Assembly: GCA_964016885.1 (NCBI GenBank)
Contig: OZ024740.1
Span: 188,542,001-188,606,000, forward strand
DNA from: Eledone cirrhosa
Taxonomy: Eukaryota
DNA: 64,000 nucleotides
Direction of reading: 5' to 3'
The notes under the pieces were generated by a model. It did no database searches and was not told where the DNA came from. It worked only from the letters and a program-made list of their open reading frames with translations. This document shows positions 12,520-54,611 of this stretch, one piece after another. Every line of letters starts with the position of its first letter. Position 1 is the first letter of the stretch. The position numbers and the translations under genes were made by a program.

Positions 12520-12637
12520 TTATTCTGATGAAATGACAGTAAATAATAACATTGAAATATTGAATGTGTGCATAACTAAAAGTTTGTAGATAGCAGCTGT
12601 TTTAGGTTATGTAACTTATAGAAACACGTGTCAATAA
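12520..12637 (+). ncRNA. Hammerhead ribozyme with expanded stem II (inverted pLTR copy)
   Basis: ttatt CTGATGA(12525-31), 89-nt insert, GAAA(12621-24) cacgtg TC aataa. Confidence 0.78.
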
Positions 12638-28409: not shown

Positions 28410-28605
28410 ATTAATAAAAAACATGAATAAAAACAAAGAAACAGTTCCTTATATTAAAAAATTCATCACTTTACGATCGTTTCTAGGATATATATGTGTG
28501 TCATATAGATCTATGTAAAACTTTTACAAACTATCAGAGGGAATATACATATATTGAGTTCTTCATACGGATTGGACACTACCGTATATTTTGGTAGATT
28601 TATCT
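28410..28605 (-). mobile_element. Truncated PLE pLTR end related to 53226-53420
   Basis: cctaGAAAcgatcgTAaag (hammerhead 3' half) and acatagatc shared with the 53.3-kb element; 5' core not found. Confidence 0.5.
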
Positions 28606-35000: not shown

Positions 35001-37026
35001 AATTGAGACTTTGATAACTCAACTATGTTTCCTTTACAATTTAAGATAGAATTTGATATGTTAAAATTTCTATTATGCTATTTGGATATTTGTAATTTTC
35101 CAAGGGTTGTCAATTGCTAATCTTTTTAAATGTGAAATATGTATAAGTTATATGAGTATACTTTTTCAAATTAACCTTATCTTTAGAGAGGAAACAGCAT
35201 TTTAATATTTACATCTAAACTAAACGTTGAATTGTTTAAATCCAGTTATAAAATATCTTATTACTCAATATGTACATGCTATAGGACATGATAACAACCT
35301 TATTACTATTAGTTTAGAAATAAAAGTAACTTGTTTGAATACAGTATGGTACTATGTACGTATCGAAGACTAAGACAGTCAAAGATCAAACTGATCAAAA
35401 CATTGTGTAGATGTGAATATTGAAATAGGTTTCATCTATAAGGATGGGGTTGATAGTCTGAAACATTATACTGCTATTATTAGTAACCCAGCTCATATAT
35501 TTAGAGACATATATAATTTGTAAAATCTGCTTGCTTTAAATAAAATCTTATGAATAATGTATATTCTACCATATCACAAGTTGAACCATTTAATTGAAAT
35601 TAGTTTTCTGCTTCCACATATTAAGATATTTCGGTTGCTTTTAATATTGCTCATAAAATATATTAATGAAATGGTCAATAGTTTTCGTTTGACTATTTTG
35701 TGCAATTGCTAAAATCTTTTAGAAATGTATCACGTACATTACAGTAATATCTACAGAATTCATTATCAACTTAATGTAAAGAAATATTTTCAAGTCAAGT
35801 AGTTTGATGCCCCTAAATTTATCGTACACAAATCTAAATAGAAAAAGGATTAAATGTACATAGGAAAGAGAAAGAAAGGGAGGGAGTGGGAGAGAGATAC
35901 AATATCATGTATACTAGATATTTCTAGTCACGTGTTCAGTAAGACATAAACCTGATTTCCAAAGTAGAATGCTTTTATCTTATTTCATAGCCTCCTTTGA
36001 ATGATCTTTATATACTTGAATATGTTCTTATCAGCAAAAACATGATCAGAACCTTGAGGTAATCCAAGAGATAAGAAAAATAAATTTCAGTTGAAAATAA
36101 AAAGTATATGAAAGAAATACGACATCATCTCAGGTGTTTGTTTTTCTTTTCATTTTTAATGGAGTAATTTAATTAAAAATAATATATTTATTTATTTTTT
36201 GTTTGTTGTCTTCCATGAATCATGAATAGTGAAACCTTCTTACTCTTAGTTATTTTGCTTTGATATATAATCTACTGAAAATGTAAACGAAAGGTGAAAC
36301 TAAAATGCTTTACCTGAAGGAAAATAGAATCAAGTTTCTTATACAATATTGGAAAGACAAAACCAAAACACTTATACATGGAATTTTCAGATTACTTAGA
36401 TTCTAAGGTTGTTTTTTTTATATTTCATCAATTATACAGAATTATATACAAAAAATAAATAATAAAGTAGTACACAAATCTAATTTTCTATACACACTTC
36501 TTTTTGTCTGAATTTCGAGATCCATTTAATTATTTGGTTGAAATTTAATCCATCATTACTTAACCCATTTTGCTACAAATCACAAAACTTCTTACTCTAT
36601 CTTTCCCTTTGACTTCTCCCTCAAATGTTCAGTGGGTGTGATTGATATTGAAATAATTTCGACAGATAAGTTTATTGCAAGATAGCTTTCTTGATAGGAA
36701 ATGAAAGTCAAGTCATATCTTATTAGAAAACATTTCCAACTGGTTGGAATCATTGGTCTTTTGCAGTCTTTAGTTCTCTGAACTTAGAAAACAAAAAGTT
36801 AATATTGTTACGGAAATCATTGATAAATGATGTAGATTGGCTATTTCTTTAATATTGTGGTTACTAGCAACAATGCTGGTTGAAGCACTCCATACTATTA
36901 TGGGGTCCATCTCTTTTTGGGTTATGCTCCAGGTTTAAGGTGGCTATCGTTTTCAGAGTACATATAAAGTGACAATAAGAATTGCAGCTTTTTGTAAACT
37001 TTATTTAATATTACAATTGTTTATCT

Positions 37027-37111
37027 CGTATCTGAAGAAGTGTCAATTAGAATCGGGATCCGATCACATGATCAAACCCGAGCTGATCAATATAGAAACA
37101 ATTGTAATATG
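37027..37111 (+). ncRNA. Hammerhead ribozyme motif with 56-nt stem II insert
   Basis: cgtat-CTGAAGA-[56 nt, cggg/cccg and gatc/gatc helices]-GAAA-caattg-TA-atatg, AATAAA at 37113; enclosed by 36-bp inverted repeat 36987-37022 / 37096-37131. Confidence 0.75.
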
Positions 37112-37615
37112 AAATAAAGTTTACAAAAAGCACCACTCTCTCTCTCTATATATATATATATCTATCTATATATATATATGAAACTAATAAGACTTTGCAC
37201 TATTGTGTATATGTGTTTGTCTTTTTCCTCTTGATCTATATCTACACACACACACACATATTTGATATATGACACTAAATCGCCATTTCTTTAATATTTA
37301 TGTAATATATGCTTTAATGAATAATTAATATATGCAGAGATTTATAGATACATTGTACCATATATTTCAGGCGTATGTGTCACAATGTAGGCAAATACAA
37401 CTAAAGTTGACATGATGGTATGAAATTAGAAATATTTGTTGTAGGAGGATTGATAGTTTGTGAGTTGAATTATTCCAATGAAGAATATAATTACTTGTAA
37501 TTTAAGTAGAATTAATTGATACATTTTGGAAATATTAATAAACAAACATTTACTTGTTCCACCAATATTATCAAATAAATCAAGAGTCTATATTTGTTTT
37601 AATATATTCAATTTT

Positions 37616-52809: not shown

Positions 52810-53093
52810 TATGTATATATACTTATATTTTCATCTTAATTTATTTTTATTTTATCTTTTGATGCTTTATATTCATTAGTACTATCCTCATTAAAAAGGA
52901 AAACAGACTCTGTGATTTTGTTGTTTCAATAAATAACTGAAACTTTCAATCTTTACTCAGAGTTAAAACACTCTCTCCTCTCCCCTCTCTCTCTCTCTCT
53001 CTCTCTCGCTCTCTATATATGGTCGGTCGTCCTCTTGTTTATGATTTTCAGACCCATGGATTCTATCTGTTATATTCCTTTCTTATATTTCGA

Positions 53094-53151
53094 ATACCTG
53101 ATGATATCACCGGATTCATACGGAACCCGGTCATTGAAATGATCATAGTAT
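53094..53151 (+). ncRNA. Intact minimal hammerhead ribozyme motif
   Basis: atac-CTGATGA-t atcaccgg[attcatacggaac]ccggtcat t-GAAA-tgatca-TA-gtat, immediately followed by AATAAA (53152). Confidence 0.85.
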
Positions 53152-53267
53152 AATAAAACTTTCAAGGATTTACACAAGTCCAGCCTCCTGTTATTTTATT
53201 ATAATATATATATATATATATATATGTTAAAACAATGAAATAAAAATTCAAGTCATTAGAAATATAC

Positions 53268-53413
53268 TTCACTGCTTTACGATCGTTTCTAGGTGATAAT
53301 AGTACATCGTACGCATATTTCGTTATCGATCTATGTAGGGTTAGTAACAAAATATCAAATAAGGAATATATTTACCTACGTGTATATTATCGGCCGTTGT
53401 CAAAAGCAATGAA
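53268..53413 (-). ncRNA. Hammerhead motif, U3-A8 core, 107-nt stem II
   Basis: ttcattgctt-TTGACAA-[107 nt; gataata/tattatc, gtagg/cctac]-GAAA-cgatcg-TA-aagcagtgaa; 10-bp stem I. Confidence 0.72.
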
Positions 53414-53608
53414 AATTTTATTCAAAATCAAAAGTAAATTGAGTTCTATGACCTTATTTGGAGGTAGCTGAAGAACAAACCAATCAAATGGTTTTTTGCC
53501 ATATGATGTTAAGATGAAATATAACTCACTTTAGTTGAGGTCATGACCTTTTGTAAGGAATGGTTGAATGGTGTTAAAAATAGAATTACTATAAAGAACC
53601 TATGGAGA

Positions 53609-53648
53609 AAGGGGATTGTTATATTGATATCAATATAACAATCCCCTT
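53609..53648. repeat. Perfect 40-bp palindrome
   Basis: aaggggattgttatattgat|atcaatataacaatcccctt. Confidence 0.95.
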
Positions 53649-54573
53649 GGAATGTAGATGGTGGAGTGAAGTTTAAAAAGGAATGTAAAAATTAAATGTT
53701 GAGTTGGGTTGTATATAAATAAGTAAATATAAAATATACAGACATAACTAGGATAAATATAGATAGGTAAAGTAATGGTCATAACTAGGAAGGATAGTAT
53801 ATTAAAAGATGAAAATTATAATAAGATAATAAAATATAATAATACAATAATATAATTTAATGTAATATAGTACATTATGGTACATTATATATAGTATAAT
53901 ATAGCGTATGATGCATCATAAAATATAAAATAGTAAATATTTTTAAGTGGGTCTATTTATAAGTAATCAAACTCAGATAAATGCATGTTGACGCATCATT
54001 TTCTTAGATCACAAAAGTACATATATTCACATATATAGATAGAGGTATAATTACATTGATACTCCATTAGAAACATACATACGCATATATAGATATGAAG
54101 ATATACATATACATACATACACACACACAAACATATATATATATACACACTTATACATACATATATACATGTACATACACACATACATGTACATACACAC
54201 ATACAAACACACATACAAACACACATACACATATACACACATATATATATATATATATATATATTCTCTTATCATACATACATAGATACATGTATACCCA
54301 TGCAATTACAGGTGGTTATGTACCTTGATGCCCTTAGTCAGTAACGCATGAATCTATGGAAGCTAAAAAATTAAAAGGTTAAAAAATAAAAAAAATAAAA
54401 AATAAACAGGAAGGCGTATAATTAGGGGAAGGTGATACTAACAAATGGTACGTCACATAGAACTATAGTGAGTTGGTATTTAGAATGTTTAATTAGGTTT
54501 ATAGTCTTTCGTATACGGTGATTACAAGCTATAATCAGTTCCTGTCTTTTATTCAATATATCGTCCTTATTTC

Positions 54574-54611
<38 letters not shown>

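What the first reader, a model, noticed from the sequence alone, without database searches (positions are those of the whole stretch)
53020..53420. Two convergent hammerheads, one with U3-A8 core and a 107-nt stem II
A canonical-core motif on + (53094-53151, AATAAA abutting) faces, across a short TA array, a minus-strand motif. The latter has a 10-bp stem I (ttcattgctt/aagcagtgaa), a TTGACAA core, a cgatcg palindrome and a branched 107-nt insert. It is ~1 kb downstream of a PLE endonuclease C-terminus (54470-54580), anchoring it to a PLE. Its 3' half recurs at 28466-28485. It is a second, sequence-unrelated example of stem II expansion.
Basis: partly seen in the sequence, partly recalled or inferred. 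Interest (0 to 1): 0.75.

Follow-up and report, generated by a model that had tools for sequence, protein, structure and literature searches.

The report
Long-armed hammerhead with swapped core pair
Two unrelated jumping genes landed tail-to-tail in one TA repeat, and one carries a predicted self-cutting RNA whose core pair is swapped to a known U-A variant and whose middle arm is stretched to about 107 bases with a conserved tip that likely docks the element's own copying protein.

Summary
Both motifs are real. The minus-strand one lies in the terminal repeat of a Hydra-clade Penelope-like retrotransposon. The U3-A8 reading holds: 68 of 114 complete family motifs have U3-A8, 43 have C3-G8, and 3 are unpaired. 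The U3-A8 elements form one endonuclease clade, sister to a C3-G8 clade. A canonical-looking CTGATGA 3 nt further in occurs in one subfamily only.

Stem II is an unbranched rod of about 100-116 nt, not branched. It is kept in three clades about 30-40% apart. Its lower helices covary and its tip is nearly invariant (19 of 22 columns).

The convergence is incidental: the plus-strand hammerhead belongs to a separate (TA)n-targeting family. U3-A8 and the mismatch at the base of stem II are published. I did not find the long arm in print (published Hydra stem II: 12-26 nt), but one key paper was unavailable.

Copy ends cluster just before the core (likely the RNA start). Only 9 of 1743 copies were caught starting at the cut, so cleavage is not shown. 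This scan has already noted long stem II arms and U3-A8 cores on other DNA of this genome.

The parts
53020..53206 (+). 5'-truncated copy of a separate repeat family, ending at its short 3' end in (TA)n; parent ORF not identified
53094..53151 (+). Type I hammerhead, canonical C3-G8 core, U.U mismatch at the stem II base, 31-nt stem II, ATGATCAT palindrome, 4-bp stem I; predicted cut after AUA (53147)
   Evidence: 34 of 34 grouped copies CTGATGA
53206..53225 (.). (TA)n target shared by the two insertions
53220..54569 (-). 3' part of a Hydra-clade Penelope-like element (U3-A8 clade, subfamily A1a): EN C-terminus, 3' UTR/pLTR, hammerhead, short 3' end 57 nt after the cut
53268..53277 (-). Stem I 3' strand AAGCAGTGAA; predicted cleavage between 53278 and 53277 (after GUA)
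53278..53289 (-). Core 3' half GAAA, stem III palindrome ACGATCGT, A17; 12 of 12 columns identical across three clades
53290..53396 (-). 107-nt stem II rod; C.A mismatch at the base, covarying lower helix; this copy differs from the family majority at 4 positions (53392, 53388, 53346, 53302)
53328..53357 (-). Near-invariant tip of stem II: GAU/AUC helix, 4x3 internal loop, UGUA/UACA helix, variable loop
   Evidence: 19 of 22 columns identical in three clades vs 18 of 64 elsewhere in the insert
53387..53393 (-). Decoy core: CCGATAA here, CTGATGA in most A1a copies, CTGGTGA in A1b; part of the stem II helix, not the catalytic core
53397..53403 (-). Core 5' half U3-U4-G5-A6-C7-A8-A9
53404..53413 (-). 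Stem I 5' strand; 5' ends of family copies cluster in 53414-53397 (mode 53410), likely the RNA start
54488..54569 (-). C-terminal fragment of the GIY-YIG-type endonuclease (LNKRQELIIACNH), with a deletion
54570..54582 (+). Inverted last ~13 nt of the element's long 3' tail, followed by (TA)n: the other end of the same insertion
28440..28540 (-). 5'-truncated sister-clade (C3-G8, clade B) copy that starts inside stem II and lacks the 5' core

Best explanation
The minus-strand motif is a type I hammerhead with a U3-A8 core and a 107-nt rod-shaped stem II in the terminal repeat of a Hydra-clade Penelope-like retrotransposon; it is predicted to cut slowly and only as a dimer, and the conserved tip of its long arm likely binds the element's own RT-endonuclease. 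Shown: the fold, the 3-8 swap, covariation of stem I and lower stem II, the link to the EN gene, and two same-sense copies 4.5 kb apart in a near-complete element (L081). Inferred: transcription starts about 7 nt before the core, so the ribozyme is the 5' leader and recurs in the 3' UTR. Inferred: the two copies pair through the ACGAUCGU palindrome to build helix III and cut after GUA, probably with protein help. Inferred: most genomic copies come from uncut RNA. Inferred: the lower rod is a spacer that tolerates any paired sequence, while the tip is read by sequence. The facing plus-strand hammerhead is an independent insertion into the same TA repeat.
For: Register and core: sister clades carry CTGA[A/T]GA between the same stem I and the same stem II base C-R-G-C. 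Positions 3/8 are U-A in 68, C-G in 43 and other in 3 of 114 distinct complete motifs (taken from 192 anchors by a filter that needed an intact 5' half within 3 mismatches). N7 varies C/A between U3-A8 subfamilies that are 18% apart. The decoy core is absent from 0 of 17 A1b, 0 of 5 intermediate and 0 of 42 B/C grouped copies carrying it. Structure: in-register pairing is 836 of 912 cells for stem I and 878 of 912 for stem II pairs 5-12, against 319-613 and 87-529 when slid. Covariation score 0.208, 0 of 500 shuffles, slid controls <=0.12. Insert z-scores -2.1 to -7.4 in six subfamily groups. EN tree: U3-A8 elements form one clade (100/99), sister to the C3-G8 clade (93/93). 5' ends: 23 of 99 arms fall in -137..-120, against 38 in -119..0. 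Literature: U3-A8 is natural and was reported active in vitro (PMC3088659 section 8). PLE hammerheads cut weakly and as dimers (PMC4209133). The Anolis PLE hammerhead is protein-assisted and uncut RNA is the main template (PMC11167929).
Against: No direct sign of cleavage. Only 9 of 1743 copies were caught starting at the cut (the filter misses TA-flanked starts). The rate is 8-9 at the cut against 3.8 per position over +1..+10, but 0..+2 together give 12 against about 11 expected. The tip is invariant, so it shows no two-sided covariation (helices 4 and 5), and RNA structure there is not proven. No protein-binding data. Covariation events are few and follow the tree: only 7 pairs change on both sides, 29 of 500 shuffles reach that number. 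The monomer MFE mispairs the core with the stem III palindrome and lies about 3 kcal/mol below the core-open fold. A C.A mismatch replaces the G10.1-C11.1 pair.
Confidence: 0.55

Rival explanations
1. The ribozyme is real, but the conserved tip is a DNA-level internal promoter element about 55-85 nt downstream of the start site. The rod mainly keeps the leader compact or slows cleavage.
For: The tip is conserved by sequence without two-sided covariation. Copy 5' ends cluster just upstream, as expected for an internal promoter. PLE terminal repeats hold promoters (PMC6765202 passage).
Against: The invariant blocks are mutually complementary and sit at the end of a covarying rod in every clade. 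Their spacing varies with loop length, including a 116-nt form.
Confidence: 0.22
2. The motif no longer cleaves. The hammerhead fold is kept only as a structural or protein-binding leader.
For: No clear excess of copy ends at the cut. Mismatch at the stem II base. Published PLE hammerheads are very slow.
Against: All catalytic positions are invariant across three clades. The 3-8 tertiary pair was replaced by another Watson-Crick pair and then kept through several subfamilies. The canonical sister clade shows the same weak end profile, so the readout may simply be insensitive.
Confidence: 0.15
3. The real core is the CTGATGA 3 nt inside the insert, and TTGACAA is a look-alike.
For: Most A1a copies carry CTGATGA or CTGACGA there (33 of 40), with variation at N7.
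Against: It is CTGGTGA in A1b and the intermediates and absent in clades B and C. It is base-paired in stem II. It leaves a 10-nt gap to stem I.
Confidence: 0.03
4. The two facing hammerheads form one functional cassette, for example processing sense and antisense transcripts.
For: Two further loci hold both families in convergent orientation, 0.7 and 1.4 kb apart (L002, L204).
Against: Of 188 loci with the minus motif and 33 with the plus motif (404 loci, overlaps counted separately), only the window itself (2 loci) and those two have both, with no fixed spacing. Each family ends in its own (TA)n. They lie on opposite strands and have different palindromes (heteroduplex -5.6 vs homoduplex -10.0 kcal/mol).
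Confidence: 0.03

Closest known systems
Hammerheads of Hydra-clade Penelope-like elements (Craig et al. 2021, PMC8557442, section 11 and File S2)
   Same: Type I topology in the 3' repeat, short palindromic stem III, unpaired or mismatched bases flanking stem II, (TA)n targeting, protein motifs RW[K/R], DKT, CxCX5C, CxxC and CxH
   Different: Listed Hydra stem II regions are about 12-26 nt (my count; longest in the whole table about 54 nt, non-Hydra) against 101-116 nt here. None listed has U3-A8. Stem I is 9-11 bp here.
U3-A8 min-HHR of Schistosoma mansoni Cercyon PLEs (Cervera and de la Pena 2014, PMC4209133)
   Same: Same 3-8 swap in a PLE terminal-repeat hammerhead, about 1,300 hits, predicted dimer requirement
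   Different: Helix II of 7-8 bp with conserved G10.1-C11.1 there; a different PLE group, so the swap here arose independently
Natural core variants of hammerheads (Perreault et al. 2011, PMC3088659)
   Same: U3-A8 and a U10.1-U11.1 mismatch described as natural and compatible with activity
   Different: Their stems II are short, often 1-2 bp; no long rod in the passages and section read
Anolis Poseidon PAc hammerhead (PMC11167929)
   Same: PLE ribozyme near the RNA 5' end; protein-assisted cleavage; uncut RNA is the main template; internal RT start sites at AT-rich targets
   Different: Canonical core, short stem II, start codon inside the ribozyme

Membership tests
Type I hammerhead ribozyme | Three helices around a core, open at stem I | tested here: met
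   stems I and II pair in register and covary; stem III is an invariant palindrome
Type I hammerhead ribozyme | Core U4 G5 A6 A9 G12 A13 A14, A15.1-U16.1, H17 | tested here: met
   invariant across three clades; H17 is A or U
Type I hammerhead ribozyme | Watson-Crick pair between positions 3 and 8 | tested here: met
   U-A 68, C-G 43, other 3 of 114
Type I hammerhead ribozyme | Base pair 10.1-11.1 closing stem II next to the core | tested here: not met
   C.A mismatch in all six subfamily groups. Mismatched flanks are usual in published Hydra hammerheads, so this marks the PLE variant rather than exclusion.
Type I hammerhead ribozyme | Loop I-loop II tertiary contact | not testable with these tools
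   The stem II tip is about 40 bp from the junction; no canonical contact recognised
Type I hammerhead ribozyme | Site-specific self-cleavage | tested here: inconclusive
   Indirect test by copy ends only
Hydra-clade Penelope-like element | Single RT ORF with C-terminal GIY-YIG EN | tested here: met
   the Pfam GIY-YIG match is weak, E=0.005, below the curated cut-off; ORFs of the copies are interrupted
Hydra-clade Penelope-like element | RWK and DKT motifs | tested here: met
   RMRWRA in L090, SDKT in L081, L090, L015
Hydra-clade Penelope-like element | CxCX5C linker; CxxC and CxH around the conserved E and N; no CCHH | tested here: met
   CNCRNRSVC, CRLC, CNH in the EN printed, against the definition; absence of CCHH judged by eye
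Hydra-clade Penelope-like element | pLTRs with hammerhead, inverted 5'-truncated copy, (TA)n insertion | tested here: met
   L081 layout; TA flanks
Hydra-clade Penelope-like element | Placement in the Hydra clade of an RT tree with reference sequences | not tested
   The tree holds only endonucleases of this genome
Neptune-clade PLE | CX2-5CxxC linker and CCHH motif | tested here: not met
   my first assignment, withdrawn
Non-LTR retrozyme | Non-coding tandem repeat with a hammerhead in each unit | tested here: not met
   Copies are dispersed and linked to a coding EN/RT

The most novel reading that the evidence does not exclude
In this PLE lineage the hammerhead has become a two-part device: an active, dimer-gated ribozyme whose stem II was extended to a ~100-nt rod that presents a sequence-specific docking tip for the element's RT-endonuclease. 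Protein binding would switch on cleavage and select the RNA for copying. It was kept through about 40% divergence and a complete swap of the 3-8 core pair.
Probability: 0.3. Interest if true: 0.7.

Novelty: new variant of a known kind. Interest (0 to 1): 0.42.

Why it matters
The role of PLE hammerheads is unresolved. This lineage gives a natural matched pair (U3-A8 against C3-G8 in the same long-arm frame), which shows that selection keeps the catalytic geometry. It also gives a defined candidate site for the protein assistance reported for the Anolis element. Published descriptors use short stem II limits (for example a 7-17 nt spacer), so thousands of such motifs per genome are missed: at least 1,778 exact 3'-half matches for this clade and 6,448 exact 5'-half matches for the canonical relatives. 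The convergent arrangement itself does not matter.

Tried and rejected
Rfam scan of the window: no hammerhead among the 150 of 213 rows shown, which were mostly microsatellite matches. Inner CTGATGA as the true core: favoured, rejected. Three pattern hits with other cores in the same flanks looked like canonical siblings but were unrelated sequence. Neptune assignment: withdrawn. Branched stem II: not supported. Cleavage footprint: inconclusive. Upstream set: 15 true ends at 0..-2 against 20 at -3..-12 among 44 of 45 rows, 9 indel rows dropped. Downstream set: 91 of 92 rows, 26 indel rows dropped. The canonical clade gave 7 against 11 on 30 of 54 loci and about 16 against 19 by eye on all 54 rows. 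Sequencing runs: no RNA holder listed; no reads laid. Parent ORF of the plus family: copies share at least 1.5 kb upstream, but no linked RT or EN was established in 4 extended loci. No EN was found for clade C. Literature: searches found no report of a ~100-nt PLE stem II. Lunse et al. (PMC5785218) and Nelson and Uhlenbeck (PMC2271363) are not held, and Lunse may describe such variants. The supplements of PMC4209133 were not read.

Full report
Observation. Both motifs are present at the stated places. The plus motif spans 53094-53151 with a canonical core, a 31-nt stem II and AATAAA directly after. The minus motif spans 53413-53268 with a 10-11 bp stem I, TTGACAA, a 107-nt insert, GAAA, CGATCG and a predicted cut between 53278 and 53277. 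A descriptor needing 9 bp of stem I finds it once in the window and never in 60 shuffled windows. The insert folds at z=-3.3 as an unbranched rod. Rfam lists no hammerhead here among the rows shown.

Two families, not one cassette. DNA searches of the own genome gave 1,043 first-look candidates for the minus motif and 1,530 for the plus motif. Copies of each end in their own (TA)n and do not share flanks. Among 404 loci (overlaps counted separately), 188 hold the minus motif and 33 the plus motif. Besides the window (2 loci), only L002 and L204 hold both, 1.4 and 0.7 kb apart. That is more than a uniform spread would give, but is what shared (TA)n targeting predicts (inference). The plus family shares at least 1.5 kb upstream; I did not establish its ORF.

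The host element. Copies continue past 54569 into an endonuclease reading frame. L081 holds an inverted truncated copy, a 5' repeat with the hammerhead, an interrupted RT-EN ORF and a 3' repeat with a second same-sense hammerhead 4.5 kb away. I first called it Neptune. An earlier scan note pointed to Hydra, and the definition in PMC8557442 section 11 fits: RMRWRA, SDKT, CNCRNRSVC, CRLC and CNH. The window insertion has the two-ended form: a short end 57 nt past the cut at about 53220, and the inverted last bases of the long tail at 54570.

Which core is real. Most close copies carry CTGATGA 3 nt after TTGACAA; the window copy has it as CCGATAA. This raised a serious rival, which more distant relatives settled. 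The 28466 stretch belongs to a sister clade B with CTGA[A/T]GA directly after stem I, followed by the same C-R-G-C base and the same 3' half. A third clade C has the same frame. Within the U3-A8 clade, subfamily A1b (18% from A1a) has TTGAAAA and CTGGTGA in place of the decoy. Of 114 distinct complete motifs, taken from 192 anchors by a filter that needed an intact 5' half within 3 mismatches, positions 3 and 8 are U-A in 68, C-G in 43 and other in 3. In an endonuclease tree of 41 rows, the rows linked to U3-A8 motifs fall in one clade (100/99), sister to the clade holding the C3-G8-linked rows (93/93). All Hydra hammerheads in File S2 have C3-G8, so the swap is derived (parsimony). Three pattern hits with other cores in A1a flanks were unrelated sequence.

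Structure. Stem I pairs in 836 of 912 cells, with two compensatory changes between clades. Stem II pairs 5-12 pair in 878 of 912 cells although their sequences differ widely; slid registers give 319-613 and 87-529. On a 13-row alignment the covariation score was 0.208 with 0 of 500 shuffles as high, but only 7 pairs change on both sides (29 of 500 shuffles), the events follow the tree, and clade B's lower helix is misaligned there. All six subfamily groups fold as rods, mostly 101-116 nt, z from -2.1 to -7.4. The tip is 19 of 22 columns identical across three clades against 18 of 64 elsewhere in the insert, but it shows no two-sided changes. The base of stem II is a C.A mismatch in every group. 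Other hammerhead-like motifs in the fetched DNA have stem II of 11 to 107 nt, so elongation is a spectrum in this genome.

Copy ends. Of 99 arms, 23 start 120-137 nt before the cut (mode -133, 7 nt before U3), 38 start in the following 120 nt, 27 run on beyond 220 nt, and 11 end between. I read the cluster as the RNA start (inference). Starts at the cut are rare: 9 of 14 filtered hits among 1,743 copies. Against neighbours: 8-9 at the cut and 3.8 per position at +1..+10, but the A run blurs positions and 0..+2 holds 12 against about 11 expected. Upstream, there are 15 at 0..-2 against 20 at -3..-12. Three insertions have both arms starting at the cut (L206, L208, L267) against one at +7; L206 looks like a duplication. 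The canonical clade shows the same weak profile. So U3-A8 is not visibly worse than C3-G8, but cleavage is not shown for either.

Mechanism. Most likely the ribozyme forms the RNA leader and recurs in the 3' UTR. The two copies pair through the palindrome (homoduplex -10.0 kcal/mol) and cut slowly, probably with protein help, while most insertions are copied from uncut RNA. This follows PMC4209133 (parts 1-2 of 4 read) and PMC11167929 (passages). The rod is likely a spacer carrying a sequence-read tip for the RT-EN protein; a DNA promoter role for the tip is the main rival. These steps are inferred and untested.

Comparison. U3-A8 is published as natural and active in vitro (PMC3088659, passages and section 8) and in S. 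mansoni PLEs. Mismatched flanks of stem II are usual in Hydra hammerheads, whose stem II regions are about 12-26 nt; the longest entry in File S2 is about 54 nt (PMC8557442: passages, section 11, supplement searches and part 2 of 59). The two motifs searched in that supplement gave no Hydra match. Searches found no ~100-nt PLE stem II. Passages of PMC6765202, PMC13725137 and PMC7936874 and part 1 of 5 of bioRxiv 10.64898/2026.07.22.740005 add none. Lunse et al. (PMC5785218) was seen only as a citation and could weaken the novelty claim. Earlier notes of this scan describe long stem II and U3-A8 cores elsewhere in this genome; none matched this sequence.

Verdict. A real, selected hammerhead variant of a known element class. 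The convergence is incidental, the core swap is known, and the long rod with a conserved tip is the new part. Interest 0.42.

Noticed in passing
window 12520-12637 (+) and 11325-11206 (-): Two copies of another hammerhead family with canonical core, 89/91-nt stem II, CACGTG palindrome and A.A mismatch at the stem II base
   Followed up: partly
window 37026-37112 (+) and 28253-28209 (-): Further type I hammerheads with 56-nt and 14-nt stem II
   Followed up: no
L016:1335-1523 (-); L033 and L074 tails: Each family has two 3' ends (57 and 187 nt after the cut in clade A). A tail motif GATTACATTGAGTTCTTCAT is shared by clades A and B, with a similar stretch in the plus family; possibly an RT start signal
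   Followed up: no
L254, L273, L274, L276, L319: Perfect head-to-head insertions folded exactly on the stem III palindrome, as if two cDNA ends annealed through it
   Followed up: partly
L255, L312: Junctions that join the inverted 5' strand of stem I to its 3' strand through their complementarity, skipping the ribozyme
   Followed up: no
L105:1364-1522 (-): Clade B subfamily with 116-nt stem II made by repeating a short unit in the tip loop, and GUU instead of GUA at the cut
   Followed up: partly
L063, L065, L071, L095, L128: A different short repeat is inserted repeatedly at the same spot just before the core in clade B copies
   Followed up: no
L081, L086, L092, L415, L418: Many other Hydra-like elements are nested next to these copies, consistent with shared (TA)n targeting
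   Followed up: no
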